A stretch of DNA of 64,000 bases. It comes from a virus. Positions 10,599-26,528 of the stretch are shown piece after piece. Location: positions 1 through 64,000 of IMG/VR virus record IMGVR_UViG_3300049734_000086; one strand, written 5' to 3'. How positions within the stretch are numbered: position 1 is the first letter of the stretch; each line of letters starts with the position of its first letter. The position numbers and the translations under genes are program-made. The notes below the pieces were generated by a model that saw only the letters and a program-made list of their open reading frames with translations, was not told where the DNA came from and searched no databases.

Positions 10599-11663
10599 TC
10601 AGGCCAGCAGGTTCGTCGAGCGAGTGTTGACCACCGTGATCCGCAGCGGGGCGGTCAGACTCGTCATGCCCGCAGGCGGTCCCGGAGGCATGTAGAGGTC
10701 GAAGTCCACCACCGGGCGGACCTGTCCGTGCCCGACGACCACCGCCTTGTAGCCCCCAGTCTGGACTTGCAGGTTGGGGATCTCGAAGAACAGCGAGCGT
10801 TGGGTCGTGGAGTTGACGTAGGTCCCGCGCATGTGCAGGTCGGCCTTGAACCTCTGGCTGGCGTGCATCCCGGCCTGGAGCGAGTTGGCCGAGGCCGAGG
10901 TCATGCGGGCGTAGGTGATCTGCATGGTGCCGGTCCAGAAGCCGTCGTCCTCGGCCTCGATGATGCCGTCGGAGTTGAGGACGAAGTCCTGGGCCAGGGG
11001 CCGGGTGATGTCCAGACTGAACTCCTTGGCCACGGGCACTTCATCGGTGGCGGTCAGCGAGTTGCCGGACTGGATGTTCATCCGCAGCCGGGTGAGGCGG
11101 CGGAAGGCTCGGTTGCCGGGCGTGGCGGGGACGGCCCCGGCCAGGGTCGCCGAGTTGTTGATGACCGAGTCGTAGGTGGTGCGGTTGCCGACGATGGCGA
11201 AGTTCACCTCCATCCGGCCCTGCGCGCCGACCTTGATGCCGAACCCCATCACCTTGAACGAGGGAATCTCCTGGACGTAGTTCTGGAAATTCGCCGCGTA
11301 GGTGAACATGGGGACCAGACTGGGGCTCAGCGTCAGGACGTGCTCGTAGGCCACCAGGGACCCGGCCGCCTGAGAGCTGACGACCACGGGAGTGGCGGCC
11401 GATCCCATGGCCCCGGCCAGAAACACGTCGGGGCCCTGCTCGAAGCGGAGCTGCATGGCCATGGTCGGGGTCACGGGCTGGTAGTCGCCGACCTCCGAAG
11501 GGCCGATGAAGTCCTGGGAGAAGGATTCGTCAATCACCATCTCAGGGCGGTTGTCGAACCCTTCGGTATTCATGATCAAGAGCTGGTTGGTGACCGAGGC
11601 GGGCACCGCCCAAGTGTTACAGCGGGCAAACCCCGCATCGATCAAACGTCCGACAACACCCAT
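10599..11663 (-). CDS. major tail (tube) protein
   Basis: Start MGVVGRL behind AAGGAG; ~354 aa beta-rich; upstream of the chaperones. Confidence 0.8.
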   Translation of the reverse strand: MGVVGRLIDAGFARCNTWAVPASVTNQLLIMNTEGFDNRPEMVIDESFSQDFIGPSEVGDYQPVTPTMAMQLRFEQGPDVFLAGAMGSAATPVVVSSQAAGSLVAYEHVLTLSPSLVPMFTYAANFQNYVQEIPSFKVMGFGIKVGAQGRMEVNFAIVGNRTTYDSVINNSATLAGAVPATPGNRAFRRLTRLRMNIQSGNSLTATDEVPVAKEFSLDITRPLAQDFVLNSDGIIEAEDDGFWTGTMQITYARMTSASANSLQAGMHASQRFKADLHMRGTYVNSTTQRSLFFEIPNLQVQTGGYKAVVVGHGQVRPVVDFDLYMPPGPPAGMTSLTAPLRITVVNTRSTNLLA

Positions 11664-11790
11664 GAGGCTGACTCCTTGCCTAGACTCCCGCGCGAGGGAG
11701 CTATGGCGCAATACGGGTTACGAGTCTTGTTGGTCAGTCTGAGACAGGTCGCCGGTCGGGTCACAGGACGGGTCATCGTACGCATCGGTG

Positions 11791-12198
11791 CTAGTCCAGG
11801 GTGACGGCAATCTGCAGCCGCCCCACGGCAAAGTCTTGGTCGTCTTCGGGTTCGGGGATGTCCGAGCCAGGAGCGGGCTCGTCCATCACGGAGTACGGGT
11901 ACTGCGGGTAGTCGTCGGTGATCGCATCCTCCAGCGCATCGAGGTCCACTTTCAACTGGCGGGCGGCTCCCCACCCGTCCCGTTGAATCCGCCGGGCCAC
12001 GTGGATGAACAGCAGGTACTCGTCGTTCTGCGCTCCGCCCACGTAGTCGATGGACCCGACTCGCTCGGCGCTGAGATGATACACCCGGTGCATCTGCGTC
12101 GAGGGCTGGAGATCGAAGTCGAACGGCTCGATCGACTTGTGAAAGCCCAGGGCCTCGGTCAGGACGGCGATGCGGAGGACCAGTTCGTCGGCGGTCAT
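11791..12198 (-). CDS. putative tail completion/terminator protein, paralog A
   Basis: 135 aa acidic protein directly upstream of the tail tube. Confidence 0.6.
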   Translation of the reverse strand: MTADELVLRIAVLTEALGFHKSIEPFDFDLQPSTQMHRVYHLSAERVGSIDYVGGAQNDEYLLFIHVARRIQRDGWGAARQLKVDLDALEDAITDDYPQYPYSVMDEPAPGSDIPEPEDDQDFAVGRLQIAVTLD

Positions 12199-12584
12199 GA
12201 GGGATTGCTCTCCCGGATGAACTCCACCGTGAAGCGGAGGCGGGCGACCAGGAAGTCCCCGACCTTGGTCGGCGGCTGGATCATCTTCTCGGGCACGGGC
12301 TCGTCGGCGACGTTGTAGCCACCGGCAATGGCGTCCAGGTGGACCTGATCCAGGGCCGTGTCCAGGTCCTGGTGCATCTTGACTCTGGTCTCCCAGGCCC
12401 CGAGGCGGCGTGTGCGCCGGGCCATGAAGATCGTGAACTCGTGCTGCTCGATCCGGTAGCCCGCGTCGGTCTGCAGGACCGGCTCGTGGTTGACCCGCTC
12501 ACTGGTCATGTGGAACACCTGATCCAGCCGGGTATCGGGTTGGAGATCGAAGTTGAACGGTTCGCGGGCGCGGGCGTATCCCAT
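12195..12584 (-). CDS. putative tail completion protein, paralog B (lacks N-terminal helix)
   Basis: EPFNFDLQPDTRLDQVFH aligns with EPFDFDLQPSTQMHRVYH of paralog A; TGATG-coupled start. Confidence 0.65.
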   Translation of the reverse strand: MGYARAREPFNFDLQPDTRLDQVFHMTSERVNHEPVLQTDAGYRIEQHEFTIFMARRTRRLGAWETRVKMHQDLDTALDQVHLDAIAGGYNVADEPVPEKMIQPPTKVGDFLVARLRFTVEFIRESNPS

Positions 12585-14059
12585 CACGCCGTCCCCATGC
12601 CTTCGATGACCAGGATGATGCGGTCCCACACCAAGCCGACAGCGGTGGTTTCGAGGACCGGCGGGGGAATCGGGGCGTCCCCGGCGAAGGTCGAGGAGCC
12701 GGTGGCTTGGAAGACCGCGTTGACGGTACGGCCCCCGGCCATGGCCATCGTGGCGCTGCCGGTGGAGGTCAGGACCGAGGCGGTGGTACTGGCTCCGGTC
12801 GCCGAGAGGGCGGCGGTGGCTGCCGAGGACAGGACTCCGGCAGCCGTGGCACGTCCGACCCCGGCCGCAGTGGCCACGCCAGCAGACGACAGTGCCCCAG
12901 GTTTGACGCCCGTGCCCACGGTGAGGCAGGTGGCCACCCCCGAGGCGTTGAGGACTGCAGCGGCCGTGGAGCGGCCCACGGTGGTGACTGTGGCGGACCC
13001 ACTGGAGGCCAGGGCGGAGGCAGCCGTGGACCGGCCAGTCGCCGAGCACGTGGCGGACCCCGAGGCCGAGAAGACCCCGGCAGTGACGCCAGCGTTCGAG
13101 GCCGCGAAGGTCCCGACACCAGCCGCGTTGAGGACCGAGGCGGCGGTACTGCGACCGACCGTGGAGACCGTGGCTTGACCCGAGGAGGCCAGAACGGACG
13201 CCGCCGTCGAGCGACCGACCGTGGTGACACTGGCCGCGCCACTGGAACTGAAGACGGCCGAGGCAATGGCCTGCCCGGTGAAGGCGACCGAGGCCGACCC
13301 ACTGGCGGAGAAGGCGGCGGGGGAGGCCCCACCTTCGCCGACCCCACCAATCGTGGCTTGCCCGGCGGCCGAGAACACAGCAGCCGCCGTACTGCGGCCG
13401 ACCGCCGAGAGTGCGCCGGTCCCGGCCGAGGAGAAGGCCGAGGAGGCGGTGGACTGGGCCGTGAAGGCGGCGGTACTCGAACCACTAGCCGCGAGGACCC
13501 CGGCTGCAAGTCGGGCCCCGACGAAGGTGGCGGTGCTGGTGCCACTACTACTGAGGACCGACGCCGCTGTCGACTGCCCCACCCCGGTGAGCGCCCCACT
13601 GCCTGCCGACGTGAAGACGGAGGCGGCCGTACTCCGCCCCACGGCACTGAGCGAGCCGACACCACTGCTACTGAGAATGGAGGCGGCCGTCGACCGCCCC
13701 ACCATGGACACGGAGGCCGCGCCACTGGAGGACAGAACGCCGGTCCCAATCGTGGCTCCGACTGCCGAGAACGTACCCGCGCCACTGCTGCTGAAGACCG
13801 ACGACGCGATCCCACTGCCGACCGTGGTGACCGTGGCCGACCCGCTGGAGCTGAGCACCGAGGCGGCCGTCGACCGTCCCGTGTGGGACACGGTGGCCAC
13901 ACCACTGCTGGCGAACACCGCAGCGGCGATGCTGGCCCCGACAAAGGCGGCCACCGCCACGCCGCTGGCGCTGACCGATGCGCTCTCGATCCCCGGCGCG
14001 GGCGGTGTGACCGCCAGGGTGTTGTTGAAGCGCGGAGACCGGAGTTGATGGAAGGACAT
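12584..14059 (-). CDS. Ser/Thr/Ala/Gly-rich repeat virion protein (~20-aa repeats)
   Basis: About 20 copies of VGRSTAASV(L/F)xSSGxAxxxx. Confidence 0.8.
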   Translation of the reverse strand: MSFHQLRSPRFNNTLAVTPPAPGIESASVSASGVAVAAFVGASIAAAVFASSGVATVSHTGRSTAASVLSSSGSATVTTVGSGIASSVFSSSGAGTFSAVGATIGTGVLSSSGAASVSMVGRSTAASILSSSGVGSLSAVGRSTAASVFTSAGSGALTGVGQSTAASVLSSSGTSTATFVGARLAAGVLAASGSSTAAFTAQSTASSAFSSAGTGALSAVGRSTAAAVFSAAGQATIGGVGEGGASPAAFSASGSASVAFTGQAIASAVFSSSGAASVTTVGRSTAASVLASSGQATVSTVGRSTAASVLNAAGVGTFAASNAGVTAGVFSASGSATCSATGRSTAASALASSGSATVTTVGRSTAAAVLNASGVATCLTVGTGVKPGALSSAGVATAAGVGRATAAGVLSSAATAALSATGASTTASVLTSTGSATMAMAGGRTVNAVFQATGSSTFAGDAPIPPPVLETTAVGLVWDRIILVIEGMGTA

Positions 14060-14070
14060 GGAGGTCTAGC

Positions 14071-14787
14071 CTACAAAGCCCTCCCGGGTGTGAAGGCAGC
14101 CGGGCGCAGGATGTTACCGGGCTGGAAGCGCCCGTAGAACGGATGGTCTTCGACTGCCGTTGTCCCGTTATTCGTGGGGCTCAGACCGCCGACCAAGTCT
14201 GTCAGTCCCAGGGCCTCGGTCAGCGGCCAGTACCCGACTGGCGAGTCGATGATGCGCGCATCGCGCCCTCGGGCTAGCATGAACATCTGGTCCGACGACA
14301 GTTCGACATCGCGCCAGATCGCAACCTCCGCGATCACGCCGTCGAAATAGTTCGTCCCGTTGGAGAGCGCCCCAAACGTCAGATTGACTGCCGGTTCTGT
14401 GGTGGGGCCACCCATGGTCCCCTGCATCGTGATGGACCCGTTGATGTACGACCGCGCACGCGCATCCGAAATTCGCCACGACGCACCCACCGCAACCCAT
14501 CGGTCGTAGAAGGCAGACACATCACCGCTGTCTTGGCCGACCTGCCATCCGAGTCCTTCAATGGGCCACGTCATGATGAGTCGAGTGTTCGGACTAGTAC
14601 CGGCCACCTTCAGCGACCAGCCATTCGTTCCAGCATCCTCCTTGCTGATGATGTAGCGTTCTAAGCCGTCAGACCCCGAGGTGGCCTTGATCCACGCATG
14701 CACCGTCCACGCCGTGATACCCACATTGTCGTGGGCATCCCCGACGTGAAACGACTGCGATGATCCCCGGACGAACTGTCTGCCCAT
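14071..14787 (-). CDS. LamG/concanavalin-A-like lectin domain protein
   Basis: WTVHAWIK, YING, FDGVIAEVAIW and GYWPL motifs. Confidence 0.8.
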   Translation of the reverse strand: MGRQFVRGSSQSFHVGDAHDNVGITAWTVHAWIKATSGSDGLERYIISKEDAGTNGWSLKVAGTSPNTRLIMTWPIEGLGWQVGQDSGDVSAFYDRWVAVGASWRISDARARSYINGSITMQGTMGGPTTEPAVNLTFGALSNGTNYFDGVIAEVAIWRDVELSSDQMFMLARGRDARIIDSPVGYWPLTEALGLTDLVGGLSPTNNGTTAVEDHPFYGRFQPGNILRPAAFTPGRAL

Positions 14788-18549: not shown

Positions 18550-19020
18550 TCAGTCCTCCGTGATGGTCGAGGCGGTGGTCAGGCGGGGCGTGATGCCGTC
18601 GCCGGTGACGATGTTGGGAGTGACCGTGCCCTTGTAGAGGATCTTGCCGGTCGAGGACGAGGCGGTGCCGACGTGGGCGTGGGTGGCGGTACCCGAGCCC
18701 CCGGTCCCGGCCGGGAAGTCGATATTGGCCACCGGGGACACACTGTTGGCGGAGACCGTCCACCCACCCGTGGTCCTGGCGACGGCGACCCGGGCGTAGG
18801 AGGTGTAGGTGATCTCGTTGGTGGTCTGGTCGCCCGCCTCACCCGGGTCGGCCGTGTGCAGACCCATCTGCAGGTTGGCCAGCGGGGACGAGGCCGCGTT
18901 GTCGGCGATGTTGGCGATGGCGGTGGCGTTGAAGATCAGCTTCAGCAGGTCGTTCTCGAAGGTGTTGCCCTTGGACCGTGCCATGCTGACGAGCGGTCGC
19001 AGGCGAATGGGGTAACGCAT
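18550..19020 (-). CDS. head/tail fibre-type structural protein with 14-aa leader
   Basis: SKGNTFENDLLKLIFN...LHTADPGEAG...NEITYTSYARVAV, a common phage virion family; AAGGAG RBS. Confidence 0.75.
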   Translation of the reverse strand: MRYPIRLRPLVSMARSKGNTFENDLLKLIFNATAIANIADNAASSPLANLQMGLHTADPGEAGDQTTNEITYTSYARVAVARTTGGWTVSANSVSPVANIDFPAGTGGSGTATHAHVGTASSSTGKILYKGTVTPNIVTGDGITPRLTTASTITED

Positions 19021-19093
19021 CAGATACTCCTTGAGTGGGTGACGGGAACCGCTGGTGTCTGCATGGTCAGTCTGGTCAGCACAGTCATCGGAA

Positions 19094-19969
19094 TCATCCA
19101 CGCTCGATGATGAACAGCGATTGGTCGATCGGGGCCGCCGGGGAGCTGGGCACCACCTGCTCCTCCTCCGGCAGCGTGAACTCGTTGAGGCCGATGAGCG
19201 CATCAGCCAGCATGTTGTCGGCCATGGTGTGGTACTCGCGGGACTTCTCTTTCCACTCCCCGCGCTGCGCGCCCCAGCCCTCGCCGTACATCATCGCCAT
19301 GACCTTGTAGGCCGAGGGCAGGGTCAGGCGCGAGCGGCGGACGGGCAGGGCCTGGGAGATGGCGGTGGGTACCGAGGGGGTGCGATTGGCCCCCACCCGC
19401 ATCCAGTAGCGCCATGTCGACTGGTCGTTCAGTGAGCGCCGAGCCCAGTTGGTCGGGTGCTGCCAGCCGATCTGGCCACCGCCCGAGAAGGCAATGGAGT
19501 TGACCAGGGTGGCGTCAGAGAGGGAGGACATCGCCGACCAGCCCGTGCCGGTCCAGTACTCGTAGGTCCCCACGGTCAGACTGTTCACGTTGGGCGTGCT
19601 CTGCATGGTGAGCCAGAGCTTGCGCGGCGCTTCGGGCATCCCCAGGTAGAGGAAGTCCGAGCCGACGGTGACCAGGGTGGTGGCCAGACTGACATCGTCC
19701 AGCGTCTTGTTGGTCACCGCCTCCAGGACATCGGTGAAGACCCCTCCGGTGTAGCCCAGCGCGGACTCGGGCGCGAAGCGGACGGAGTGGTTGTGCGGGG
19801 AGTACCCGGCTTTGACGAGGCGCGAGTAGAGCCAGTCGTCGACCACCGACACCCGCTTCTGCGCCATGTTGGTGCTGACGACGGCCGGAGAGTTGCCGAA
19901 CACCTCCAGGGCGTCGTAGTCGACGGTCAGCACGTCGAGTTCGGAGATGATGTCGTCGACCCTGAGCAT
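19094..19969 (-). CDS. putative head-tail adaptor
   Basis: 291 aa; position after the capsid cluster; helical C-terminus. Confidence 0.45.
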   Translation of the reverse strand: MLRVDDIISELDVLTVDYDALEVFGNSPAVVSTNMAQKRVSVVDDWLYSRLVKAGYSPHNHSVRFAPESALGYTGGVFTDVLEAVTNKTLDDVSLATTLVTVGSDFLYLGMPEAPRKLWLTMQSTPNVNSLTVGTYEYWTGTGWSAMSSLSDATLVNSIAFSGGGQIGWQHPTNWARRSLNDQSTWRYWMRVGANRTPSVPTAISQALPVRRSRLTLPSAYKVMAMMYGEGWGAQRGEWKEKSREYHTMADNMLADALIGLNEFTLPEEEQVVPSSPAAPIDQSLFIIERG

Positions 19970-25343: not shown

Positions 25344-26528
25344 CTAGGCGCTGCGGGCCTGGAACATCTGCGCTTCCTGGTGCAGTTCCAGCGTGTACTC
25401 CCCGATGATGTGACGCCGTTCGTTGTCTCCCGTCTTGGCCAGATTCTGTCGCTGGAAGTTCCGGCCGGTGAGCGGCATGACGAAGATGCGGCGCGTGTCC
25501 ACGCCCATCATGGCCTGACGCGGCATCCAGGGCGAGACGATCTTGATCACGTCGCCGAAGTCGGTCGTGACTCGCTCGATGACCCGCTGCACGGTGCGGT
25601 CGGCCTGCTCGACCTGGATCTTGCTGGCGTTGGTGGCCGAGAGGGCCGCCGACCATTCCGAGCCCATGAGCAGTACGTTGAGGTTCCGCGCGCCAGCGTT
25701 CCACCCGACCTGCATCAGGGCATTGGTGTAGAACAGCGGGTCGGCGGTGAAGGAGCTGTTGACGATGATGCTGTTGTTGGTCGTCAGGATCGAGCGCAGC
25801 CCGTTCATGGTGCGGTAGGTGTTGTCGTCACCCAGGGAGCTGATGGCCACGGAACGGATGACGGCCTTTTCGAGGTCGCGTAGCAGTTCGATGGTCCGCA
25901 GGGTTTCCTGGTTCTCGATCTCCGAGCCCACGTTCGGGCGGGTCAGCACGGCCTGACGGGTGCCGCTGATCCGAATCGGCTTCTTGAAGATCTGGGTGAA
26001 GTTCTGCTTCGGGGTACGGGGCCGCGACACGTCACCGTCGGTGTCGTCGCCTTCCTTCTCCGCCGTCGAGATGACGAAGAGGGTACCGCCCGGGGCCAGG
26101 GAGTTCACACCCTGGGGGGTCAGACCGATGTTGCGGCTGACCAGGAGGCTGTTGGGCCCGGGAATCGAGGAGACCTGCACGATCTCACGGTTGCCCGAGG
26201 GCGGCTCGAACTCCAGGAGCATGCCGACCTGCAACAGGTGCGCGAGGCCGTCGGTCTGGAACCCGGTGGCGGCGGTGGCGCTGTTGATGGCGGTGGAGTT
26301 GATGATCCGGTCGGGGCCAATCGCCTGCTCGAACCACTGATGCACGGGCGAGATCGCCGGGCGCAGGGGCTGGGGCAGGAGGTCGAGGAACGGCGTCTCG
26401 AACGGGGACGCCAGGAGCAGGATTTCCGAGATGTCGGTGTCGATGACCTGGAAGTCATCGGAGGTGGCCAAGCCGGTGAAGACAGCGGCCCGGCTCACCT
26501 GCGGTGAAAGTCGGCGCGGGTATTTCAT
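25344..26528 (-). CDS. major capsid protein (HK97 fold, SU10/DUF5309-like)
   Basis: ETPF, HQWFE, EGDD, NFTQIFKKPIRISGT, TDFG, LAKTGD..IIGEYTLE; AAGGAGG RBS; downstream terminator. Confidence 0.9.
   Translation of the reverse strand: MKYPRRLSPQVSRAAVFTGLATSDDFQVIDTDISEILLLASPFETPFLDLLPQPLRPAISPVHQWFEQAIGPDRIINSTAINSATAATGFQTDGLAHLLQVGMLLEFEPPSGNREIVQVSSIPGPNSLLVSRNIGLTPQGVNSLAPGGTLFVISTAEKEGDDTDGDVSRPRTPKQNFTQIFKKPIRISGTRQAVLTRPNVGSEIENQETLRTIELLRDLEKAVIRSVAISSLGDDNTYRTMNGLRSILTTNNSIIVNSSFTADPLFYTNALMQVGWNAGARNLNVLLMGSEWSAALSATNASKIQVEQADRTVQRVIERVTTDFGDVIKIVSPWMPRQAMMGVDTRRIFVMPLTGRNFQRQNLAKTGDNERRHIIGEYTLELHQEAQMFQARSA

What the first reader, a model, noticed from the sequence alone, without database searches (positions are those of the whole stretch)
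12560..12650. Tail-completion domain split across two ORFs by a 14-nt gap: possible ribosomal bypass
Seen: the repeat protein ends ...DRIILVIEG-ATG-GGG-ACG-GCG-TGA, and the next ORF starts ATG-GGA-TAC 14 nt after the first ATG. Removing those 14 nt gives RIILVIEGMGYARAREPFNFDLQP, which aligns without gaps to RIAVLTEALGFHKSIEPFDFDLQP of the intact paralog downstream. Known: T4 gene 60 bypassing uses matched take-off and landing codons near a stop. Inference: either programmed hopping or frameshifting makes a fibre-anchor fusion at low ratio, or gene fission leaves the N-terminal helix supplied in trans.
Basis: partly seen in the sequence, partly recalled or inferred. Interest (0 to 1): 0.75.

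Follow-up and report, generated by a model that had tools for sequence, protein, structure and literature searches.

The report
Split fibre–tail-terminator gene in soil phage
In this soil phage a 14-base insert has cut a fibre-plus-neck-ring protein in two, leaving the ring domain's first helix on the end of the fibre protein; the two pieces most likely snap back together without any unusual ribosome behaviour.

Summary
ORF1 (12584-14059, minus strand; 491-aa beta-repeat protein) ends in ..GLVWDRIILVIEGMGTA*. ORF2 (12195-12584) starts MGYARAREPF in the -1 frame, with a TGATG stop/start overlap. Four independent assemblies show the same junction with no indel.

The ~140-aa family has 57 representatives and folds like the lambda gpU tail terminator. 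Nearly all members carry an N-terminal helix with a VWDRI-type motif. Only the ORF2 clade lacks it entirely, and ORF1's tail supplies it: +14.4 bits on a family HMM, against +1.1 ± 1.6 for shuffled tails. One relative, P0011 (723 aa), encodes beta-helix, the same repeats, the helix and the core in one frame.

So this is a fission of a fibre-terminator fusion. Two relatives (79% and 69% identical) are also called from MGYAR, so the split looks stable.

Recoding signals are weak:
- no X XXY YYZ heptamer, only G GGG, which occurs 46 times in 12 genes
- no unusual RNA structure
- the stop is not adjacent to the putative take-off codon

A co-fold places ORF1's tail helix on ORF2 (0.71, best control 0.09). 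Best reading: translationally coupled split gene with helix complementation in trans. DNA of the relatives could not be fetched, so low-level recoding is not excluded.

The parts
12584..14059 (-). ORF1: 491-aa Ser/Ala/Thr/Gly-rich protein made of ~20-residue repeats (VGRSTAASVL..-type). Predicted as ~44 alternating 8- and 6-residue beta strands. Its last ~17 residues carry helix alpha1 of the terminator fold.
   Evidence: ORF and translation. GC3 is 0.82 in this frame. It aligns with the repeats and helix of the fused homologue P0011, E 7e-22. AF2 single-sequence model: periodic beta strands over residues 25-460, pLDDT 64.5, tail 463-491 below 50.
12596..12637 (-). Codons for G475-M488 of ORF1 (GLVWDRIILVIEGM). 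This is the displaced N-terminal helix alpha1 of the terminator-fold domain.
   Evidence: It matches the family N-terminal motif (P0010 ..GTVWDRISSVVATQ-GYARAR; P0011 ..AMVWDRIAALVEGL-GYIKAL). It adds 14.4 bits on the family HMM. It forms the interface in the co-fold.
12585..12598 (-). The 14 nt ATGGGGACGGCGTG that are extra relative to fused and intact homologues. They add Gly-Thr-Ala plus the TGA stop to ORF1, shift the frame by -1, and end next to ORF2's ATG. A 5-nt direct repeat, ATGGG, flanks the stretch.
   Evidence: Direct reading. Gapless alignment once the 14 nt are removed. Unchanged in four independent assemblies.
12195..12584 (-). ORF2: 129-aa terminator-fold core that lacks helix alpha1. 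Its ATG overlaps ORF1's TGA (TGATG), and a weak GGGGA/GAAGG Shine-Dalgarno-like stretch lies upstream.
   Evidence: GC3 is 0.885.
11791..12198 (-). Paralog B: intact 135-aa terminator-fold protein with its own helix alpha1. Its ATGA overlaps ORF2's stop. It is probably the canonical tail terminator.
   Evidence: AF2 pLDDT 95.6. Foldseek to lambda gpU 3fz2 gives E 3.9e-5, and to the NF5 neck TM 0.69.
10599..11711 (-). Tail tube protein gene immediately downstream (context).
   Evidence: Pfam PF18906 Phage_tube_2, E 2e-6.

Best explanation
ORF1 and ORF2 are the two halves of a gene that once encoded a single fibre-plus-tail-terminator-fold protein, as relative P0011 still does.

A 14-nt insertion sits at the end of helix alpha1. 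It added three codons and a TGA to the fibre reading frame and put the rest of the domain in the -1 frame behind an ATG that overlaps the stop (TGATG). ORF2 is therefore translated as a separate protein, by ordinary coupled initiation.

The fibre protein ORF1 is a long beta-repeat shaft that keeps helix alpha1 at its C-terminus. ORF2 keeps the beta-sheet and helix alpha2. The two most likely reassemble non-covalently: alpha1 docks into the groove it occupied in the one-chain ancestor. That would anchor the fibre to a ring of ORF2 subunits in the neck, while the intact paralog B next to the tube gene acts as the ordinary tail terminator.

Shown here: the sequence, the homology of both halves, the fused relative, the fold, and the absence of an assembly indel. 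Inferred: the direction of the event (fusion to fission), separate translation, docking in trans, and the location in the neck.
For: The junction is real and has no indel in four independent assemblies.

Family: 57 representatives, nearly all 135-145 aa with the profile starting at residue ~18-25. Only P0004, P0005 and P0006 start at the core; P0014 has a truncated helix.

P0011 (723 aa) carries beta-helix, repeats, helix and core in one frame. ORF1 aligns with it through the repeats to ..EGMG/..EGLG, E 7e-22. In the core-only tree, P0011 and P0014 group with the ORF2 clade rather than with paralog B, with support 84/56.

ORF1's tail adds 14.4 bits to the family HMM score; shuffled tails add ~1.

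ORF2 is conserved at 79% and 69% in relatives that are also called from MGYAR. That is similar to paralog B's 81% and 74%, and GC3 is 0.885, so ORF2 is not decaying.

The fold is a two-helix/four-strand sandwich like gpU, and alpha1 (residues 3-16) is one of its two helices.

Co-fold of ORF2 with the last 40 residues of ORF1: ipSAE 0.71, best of 3 controls 0.09. The calibration mark was reached by 58 of 80 solved complexes and 2 of 110 mismatched pairs. Runs agree in at least 84% of contacts, and the partner's pLDDT is at least 58. The interface is V37-G52 of P0067 (the VWDRIILVIEGMG helix) against ORF2 strands 24-30, 46-54 and 120-122 and helix 73-90. ORF2's own pLDDT is 70-77 with the tail and 51-61 with unrelated partners.

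Stop/start overlaps are the rule in this operon: ORF2/paralog B overlap as ATGA.
Against: No DNA of any relative could be fetched. It is therefore not shown that the 14-nt insert, the stop, or ORF1's helix tail is conserved in the phages that encode P0005 and P0006.

The co-fold pass may partly reflect the model's memory of intact terminator folds, because halves of a split domain tend to pass. It is a prediction, not a measurement.

ORF2's Shine-Dalgarno-like sequence is weak.

The matched ATGGG...ATGGG repeat and the G GGG run would allow low-level hopping or -1 slippage, and nothing here rules that out.

Tree support for the ORF2+P0011 grouping is modest.
Confidence: 0.55

Rival explanations
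1. Programmed recoding. A fraction of ribosomes either slips -1 on G GGG or hops 14 nt from the first ATG to the second. This makes a covalent fibre-terminator fusion alongside free ORF1 and ORF2 and so sets a fixed ratio of fibre-bearing subunits.
For: The ATG(GG) codons are matched and 14 nt apart, with a stop nearby. ORF2 lies in the -1 frame, and a G GGG run sits at the right place. The 14-nt-skipped product fits the family HMM best (117.5 bits), and the -1 product still fits (108.9 bits). Phage tail genes do use frameshifts to make decorated subunits: the SPP1 and lactococcal 936 major tail protein extensions (PMC6669499).
Against: There is no X XXY YYZ heptamer. In-frame G GGG occurs 46 times in 12 genes of this phage, and GGG is 32% of Gly codons, so it is not a 'hungry' codon. 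The stop is three codons after the putative take-off codon, not adjacent as in T4 gene 60. RNA folds around the junction are no more stable than shuffles, z -0.37 to +1.07. The -1 product would carry a 5-residue insertion between helix and core.
Confidence: 0.15
2. ORF2 works without helix alpha1, or uses a different partner. On this reading the helix at the end of ORF1 is a leftover of the fission with no present function.
For: ORF2 is conserved and has its own start. Its clade sits on a long stem branch (0.87), which could reflect adaptation to life without the helix.
Against: ORF1's tail still matches the family consensus (VWDRI..V.EG) well: 10 of 15 residues are identical to P0011. In this fold alpha1 covers one face of the sheet. 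ORF2's model confidence drops without the tail.
Confidence: 0.15
3. A recent inactivating frameshift or an assembly error. The upstream terminator copy would then be a pseudogene, tolerated because paralog B is intact.
For: A second, intact paralog lies immediately downstream. A 14-nt indel is a classic disabling lesion.
Against: The junction is identical in four independent assemblies. Relatives at 79% and 69% identity are also called from the same MGYAR start and keep the family's invariant residues. GC3 of 0.885 is typical of this phage's genes. The insert creates an exact stop/start overlap rather than a random break.
Confidence: 0.1

Closest known systems
Lambda gpU-type tail terminator proteins (TrP; also T5 p142, R4C, NF5 and SaPI1 neck terminators)
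   Same: The fold is the same (Foldseek E 3.9e-5 to 3fz2, probability 1.00, TM up to 0.69 to the NF5 neck). Size is ~135 aa. The gene sits just upstream of the tail tube gene.
   Different: Pfam, PHROGs and the PDB give no sequence-level match. Two paralogs sit in tandem. The upstream copy is split after helix alpha1, and that helix is carried by a fibre protein.
Fused fibre-terminator proteins: P0011 (723 aa; beta-helix + repeats + terminator domain). Related cases: P0012 (terminator domain + C-terminal pectate-lyase-like beta-helix) and BFVD A0A6J5NHA8 (667 aa; collagen repeat, with the terminator fold found by Foldseek)
   Same: The same repeats, helix and core appear in the same order. The general theme is a fibre or enzyme domain anchored by a terminator-fold domain.
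   Different: Those proteins are single chains. Here the chain is cut by 14 nt, and the N-terminal beta-helix head of P0011 is absent. A separate LamG protein is encoded just upstream.
T4 gene 60 translational bypass
   Same: A matched codon pair flanks a short non-coding gap that contains a stop.
   Different: The gap is 14 nt, not 50. The stop is not adjacent to the take-off codon. No take-off hairpin stands out. The downstream part has its own start codon and is called as a separate gene in relatives.
Frameshift-made decorated tail subunits (SPP1 gp17.1*, lactococcal 936 TpeX) and the lactococcal neck passage structure (NPS)
   Same: These are accessory adhesin or fibre modules attached to tail or neck rings, with the ratio set at translation (PMC6669499).
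   Different: In those cases the structural core is upstream and the decoration is added by the frameshift. Here the decoration is upstream, the core has its own start, and no frameshift signal was found.

Membership tests
gpU-like tail terminator (TrP) fold | Two-helix/four-strand alpha/beta fold superposable on solved terminators | tested here: met
   AF2 model of paralog B has pLDDT 95.6. Foldseek to 3fz2 gives E 3.9e-5, to 9m6x TM 0.69, plus many neck terminators. BFVD hits include 'tail terminator' and 'tail completion' entries.
gpU-like tail terminator (TrP) fold | Gene directly upstream of the tail tube gene | tested here: met
   Paralog B (11791-12198) abuts the PF18906 tube gene (10599-11711). 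ORF2 is one gene further up.
gpU-like tail terminator (TrP) fold | Sequence membership in a curated terminator family (Pfam or PHROG) | tested here: not met
   No Pfam or PHROG hit for ORF2. Paralog B has no Pfam hit and only an insignificant PHROG match (phrog_29299, unknown function, E 0.074). No significant relevant PDB hit: the profile's top matches are SUMO chains (best E 2.3e-4), judged spurious.
gpU-like tail terminator (TrP) fold | Hexameric ring capping the tube | not testable with these tools
   Needs cryo-EM or biochemistry.
T4 gene 60-type translational bypass | Matched take-off and landing codons | tested here: met
   ATG at 12598-12596 and ATG at 12584-12582, both followed by GG.
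T4 gene 60-type translational bypass | Stop codon immediately 3' of the take-off codon | tested here: not met
   TGA lies three codons after the first ATG: ATG GGG ACG GCG TGA.
T4 gene 60-type translational bypass | Stable take-off stem-loop or other conserved RNA signal | tested here: not met
   Only a small GGCG/CGCC hairpin. Fold z-scores are -0.37, +0.88, +0.42 and +1.07 against shuffles.
T4 gene 60-type translational bypass | Fused product made in vivo | not testable with these tools
   No RNA or proteome data. All runs that hold the sequence are DNA.
-1 programmed ribosomal frameshift | X XXY YYZ slippery heptamer in the zero frame | tested here: not met
   Only G GGG (single-tRNA slip). 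There are 46 such in-frame sites in 12 genes.
-1 programmed ribosomal frameshift | Downstream stimulatory structure | tested here: not met
Split (fissioned) gene with translational coupling | Both halves collinear with a single-chain homologue | tested here: met
   P0011 covers the ORF1 repeats and helix (E 7e-22) and the ORF2 core (E 1.3e-30 to the profile).
Split (fissioned) gene with translational coupling | Adjacent, same strand, stop/start overlap, downstream half with its own start | tested here: met
   TGATG at 12586-12582. ATG start conserved in P0005 and P0006.
Split (fissioned) gene with translational coupling | The split is conserved in relatives at the DNA level | not testable with these tools
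Scans of viral, metagenome and genome contigs found no relative of the domain.
Split (fissioned) gene with translational coupling | The halves associate | tested here: inconclusive
   Prediction only: ipSAE 0.71 against a best control of 0.09. It may reflect likeness to intact folds.

The most novel reading that the evidence does not exclude
The 14-nt element is a conserved recoding site. Ribosomes hop from ATG to ATG, or slip -1 on G GGG, at a set frequency. One locus would then yield three products: free fibre, free helix-less core, and a covalent fibre-core fusion. That would be a short-gap bypass in a soil phage, used to set fibre stoichiometry on a neck ring.
Probability: 0.12. Interest if true: 0.8.

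Novelty: new variant of a known kind. Interest (0 to 1): 0.5.

Why it matters
Phage fibres and depolymerase heads are usually attached through dedicated anchor domains. Here the anchor appears to be a single helix that completes another protein's fold, and the one-chain ancestor type is still found in a relative.

If the docking is confirmed, it would be a natural example of fold complementation, a 'split-domain' attachment, in a virion. It would show how fibre modules can be exchanged without touching the ring protein. It would also give a compact natural tag-and-dock pair.

The case also shows that the terminator fold is reused as a fibre anchor in several architectures: N-terminal fusion, C-terminal fusion and split. 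For annotation it is a caution, because the public gene call for ORF1 is only a 54-aa stub.

Tried and rejected
Fetching junction DNA of relatives failed.
- The search for related loci with ORF2, with alignments A2/A3/A4, and with P0010, P0014 and the tube protein found no relative of the domain in viral contigs, metagenome contigs or genome contigs.
- The INPHARED phage records have no DNA or protein match.

Searching for partial ORF1 C-termini of relatives returned only the window's own 54-aa call, P0067.

P0011's N-terminal beta-helix has relatives in eight IMG/VR loci. None of them carries the terminator-family domain, so they do not bear on the junction.

Tandem Repeats Finder reports no DNA-level tandem array in ORF1; the repeat exists at protein level only.

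The Pfam HHH hit in ORF1 was rejected as a low-complexity artefact: no single stretch passes.

The PDB sequence hits to SUMO were rejected as spurious.

The ESM Atlas look-up of ORF1 gave only unnamed viral clusters at low recognition.

The short sub-90% contig pieces in X5 and X7 are 35-42-nt chance matches, not relatives.

Full report
**What the window is.** It is the first 64 kb of a 74,430-bp IMG/VR virus record with direct terminal repeats. The same sequence occurs in many soil metagenome runs. The structural genes lie on the minus strand. Reading down the coordinates, the relevant ones are:
- SU10-type major capsid, 25344-26528
- several fibre-like genes, including a Gp80-like protein at 18550-19203
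- a LamG protein, 14071-14787
- ORF1, 12584-14059
- ORF2, 12195-12584
- paralog B, 11791-12198
- a PF18906 tail tube protein, 10599-11711
- a 161-aa protein
- a 1532-aa protein I read as the tape measure (from size and position; not tested)

**The observation.** On the minus strand ORF1 ends ..ATC GAA GGC ATG GGG ACG GCG TGA. ORF2 begins with the ATG whose A is the last base of that TGA, then GGA TAC.
- The two ATGs are 14 nt apart, and both are followed by GG.
- ORF2 is in the -1 frame relative to ORF1.
- ORF2 and paralog B are true paralogs: 35% identity over 119 residues, E 2e-21. The alignment starts at residue 2 of ORF2 and residue 18 of paralog B.

**Assembly artefact?** No. Logan contigs from four further soil runs (X4, X5, X7, X9, each a different sample and study) cover 12478-12656 with zero differences and no insertions or deletions. 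The only variants seen in the laid stretch are three single-base changes elsewhere.

**Does ORF1's tail really belong to the domain?** An exhaustive HMMER search with a profile of ORF2, its relatives and paralog B found 57 representatives.
- Nearly all are 132-147 aa, and the profile's second position falls at residue ~18-25 of the hit.
- They therefore carry an N-terminal segment, which the alignment shows as a conserved helix motif of the type T-x-G-x-V-W-D-R-I-x-x-V-x-x-x-Q-G-Y.
- Only the ORF2 clade (P0004, and P0005 at 79% and P0006 at 69% identity) starts directly at M-G-Y. P0014 has a truncated helix.
- ORF1 ends ..GLVWDRIILVIEGM-GTA*. Homologue P0010 begins ..GTVWDRISSVVATQ-GYARAR...

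I built a family HMM that excluded the window's two clades, P0011 and P0014:

| Sequence scored | Bits |
|---|---|
| ORF2 alone (HMM positions 19-136) | 103.1 |
| Join with the 14 nt removed (positions 2-136) | 117.5 |
| -1 frameshift product | 108.9 |
| 20 joins with shuffled tails | 104.2 ± 1.6 (max 107.5) |

A helix-only HMM run against all six frames of the window ranks paralog B's N-terminus first. ORF1's C-terminus comes second of 1545 segments. On its own that hit is weak (E 0.77). But it lies exactly at the junction.

**A fused relative exists.** P0011 is 723 aa and comes from a 57.6-kb Logan contig. In one reading frame it has:
- a weak right-handed beta-helix N-terminal part
- about twelve ~20-residue repeats of the VGR(S/T)T..F type
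- ..AMVWDRIAALVEGLGYIKALEPFDFDMQP.. followed by the complete core

ORF1 aligns with it through the repeats and the helix to ..EGMG/..EGLG, E 7e-22. Its C-terminal domain is the best non-self hit of the profile, E 1.3e-30. In a core-only maximum-likelihood tree the ORF2 clade (support 100/99) groups with P0014 and then P0011 (92/60 and 84/56, modest) and is not sister to paralog B.

The simplest history is a single-chain fibre-terminator protein that was cut by a 14-nt insertion. The reverse direction would not explain how helix alpha1 came to sit in frame at the end of the fibre ORF. The direction of the event is inference.

**What the domain is.** AlphaFold2 on paralog B with the 59-row family alignment gives pLDDT 95.6 and pTM 0.87. 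The elements are helix 3-16, strands 39-51 and 57-70, helix 75-99, and strands 102-104, 111-113 and 123-134.
- Foldseek finds tail terminators: lambda gpU (3fz2, E 3.9e-5), the SaPI1, NF5 (TM 0.69), R4C, T5 p142, P74-26, Douge and Bxb1 necks, and diffocin and monocin caps.
- The BFVD search gives 'tail terminator' and 'tail completion' entries. It also gives a 667-aa 'collagen triple helix repeat' phage protein that contains the fold.
- Pfam, PHROGs and PDB sequence searches give nothing meaningful.

In the nomenclature reviewed in PMC11784142, this is the TrP (gpU) fold and not the TCP (gpZ) fold. ORF2 nevertheless occupies the gene position where a TCP is usually found. Helix alpha1 is one of only two helices that cover the sheet. 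ORF2 alone is therefore an incomplete fold.

**What ORF1 is.** GC3 is highest in the ORF1 frame, at 0.82, and the homology to P0011 fixes the frame. Four other frames longer than 275 codons are open across the same DNA. The public gene call retains only a 54-aa stub, P0067. A single-sequence AF2 model is of moderate confidence (pLDDT 64.5) but strikingly regular. About 44 strands of alternating 8 and 6 residues span residues 25-460. The last 29 residues have pLDDT below 50. This suggests a beta-repeat shaft whose tail does not fold on its own.

**Recoding signals.**
- For a -1 frameshift, the only candidate site is G GGG at ATG-GGG. It allows P-site slippage of one tRNA but is not an X XXY YYZ heptamer.
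- In-frame G GGG occurs 46 times in 12 genes of this phage. GGG makes up 32% of Gly codons and ACG 28% of Thr codons, so no 'hungry' codon follows.
- For a hop, the ATG codons match, but the stop lies three codons downstream of the take-off codon. The gap is 14 nt.
- RNA folds of four windows around the junction are no more stable than dinucleotide shuffles, z -0.37 to +1.07. Only a small GGCG/CGCC hairpin encloses the stop/start.

In contrast, TGATG and ATGA overlaps are the norm between neighbouring genes here, and a weak GGGGA/GAAGG purine stretch precedes ORF2's ATG. ORF2's relatives are called from the same MGYAR start.

**Do the halves fit together?** I co-folded ORF2 (with the family alignment) and residues 15-54 of P0067, which is ORF1's tail.
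- ipSAE was 0.71, 0.71 and 0.63 in three runs (median 0.71). The best of three controls scored 0.09.
- The tool's calibration mark was reached by 58 of 80 solved complexes and by 2 of 110 mismatched pairs.
- The runs agree in at least 84% of contacts, and the partner's pLDDT is at least 58.
- The interface is V37-G52 of P0067, which is the VWDRIILVIEGMG helix. It lies against ORF2 residues 2-5, 24-30, 46-54, 73-90 and 120-122.
- By alignment to paralog B, those ORF2 residues are the sheet strands and helix alpha2 that alpha1 would cover in the intact fold (inference).
- ORF2's own pLDDT is 70-77 with the tail and 51-61 with unrelated partners.

This supports docking but does not show it. Halves of a split domain tend to pass because the model knows the intact fold.

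**Conclusion.** The locus is a stable fission of a fibre-terminator fusion gene. The most likely mechanism is separate, coupled translation of the two halves, followed by reassembly through helix alpha1 (confidence about 0.55). Paralog B probably serves as the canonical terminator. The rivals are:
- low-level programmed recoding, about 0.15
- a vestigial helix, about 0.15
- a decaying gene, about 0.1

The decisive data are the junction DNA of the relatives and proteomics, and I could not obtain either. I found nothing like it noted on other DNA.

Noticed in passing
window 12584-14137, both strands: Five overlapping frames longer than 275 codons are open across the repeat region. The public collection holds only a 54-aa call (P0067) for ORF1's 3' end, and the 491-aa protein is absent. 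The real gene is probably mis-annotated or missed in databases.
   Followed up: partly
L006:6900-6930 (IMGVR_UViG_3300046011_001509): A relative of P0011's beta-helix head has an in-frame TGA inside the conserved ..R-x-x-G-S-x-Y-D-I-G-A-W-E-Y motif. An ATG follows one codon after the stop (TCA TGA AGT ATG GCC), and a 336-codon repeat region continues in the same frame. This may be another fission, or a read-through point, in a fibre gene of this group.
   Followed up: partly
P0012 (806 aa, JGI contig of 4148 nt): The same terminator-family domain, with its helix, sits at the N-terminus of a protein whose remainder is a pectate-lyase-like right-handed beta-helix (PF13229 E 3e-24, PF12708). This is the opposite domain order to P0011.
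   Followed up: partly
P0014 (135 aa): This is the closest outgroup of the ORF2 clade. It starts MTMPIAAH-GY, so only half of helix alpha1 is present. It may mark a second, differently placed split, or it may be a wrong start call.
   Followed up: no
window 14071-14787 and 18550-19203, minus strand: A LamG/concanavalin-like protein (PF13385, E 4e-15) lies directly upstream of ORF1, and a Gp80-like podophage fibre domain (PF23140, E 1.5e-13) lies further up. P0011's head-shaft-anchor chain may correspond here to three separate ORFs: LamG, ORF1 and ORF2.
   Followed up: no
window, 12 large minus-strand genes: TAG is the commonest stop codon (8 of 12), even though GC3 is about 0.85-0.9.
   Followed up: no
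The Ser/Thr-rich ORF1 shaft would be a plausible substrate. Not examined here.
   Followed up: no
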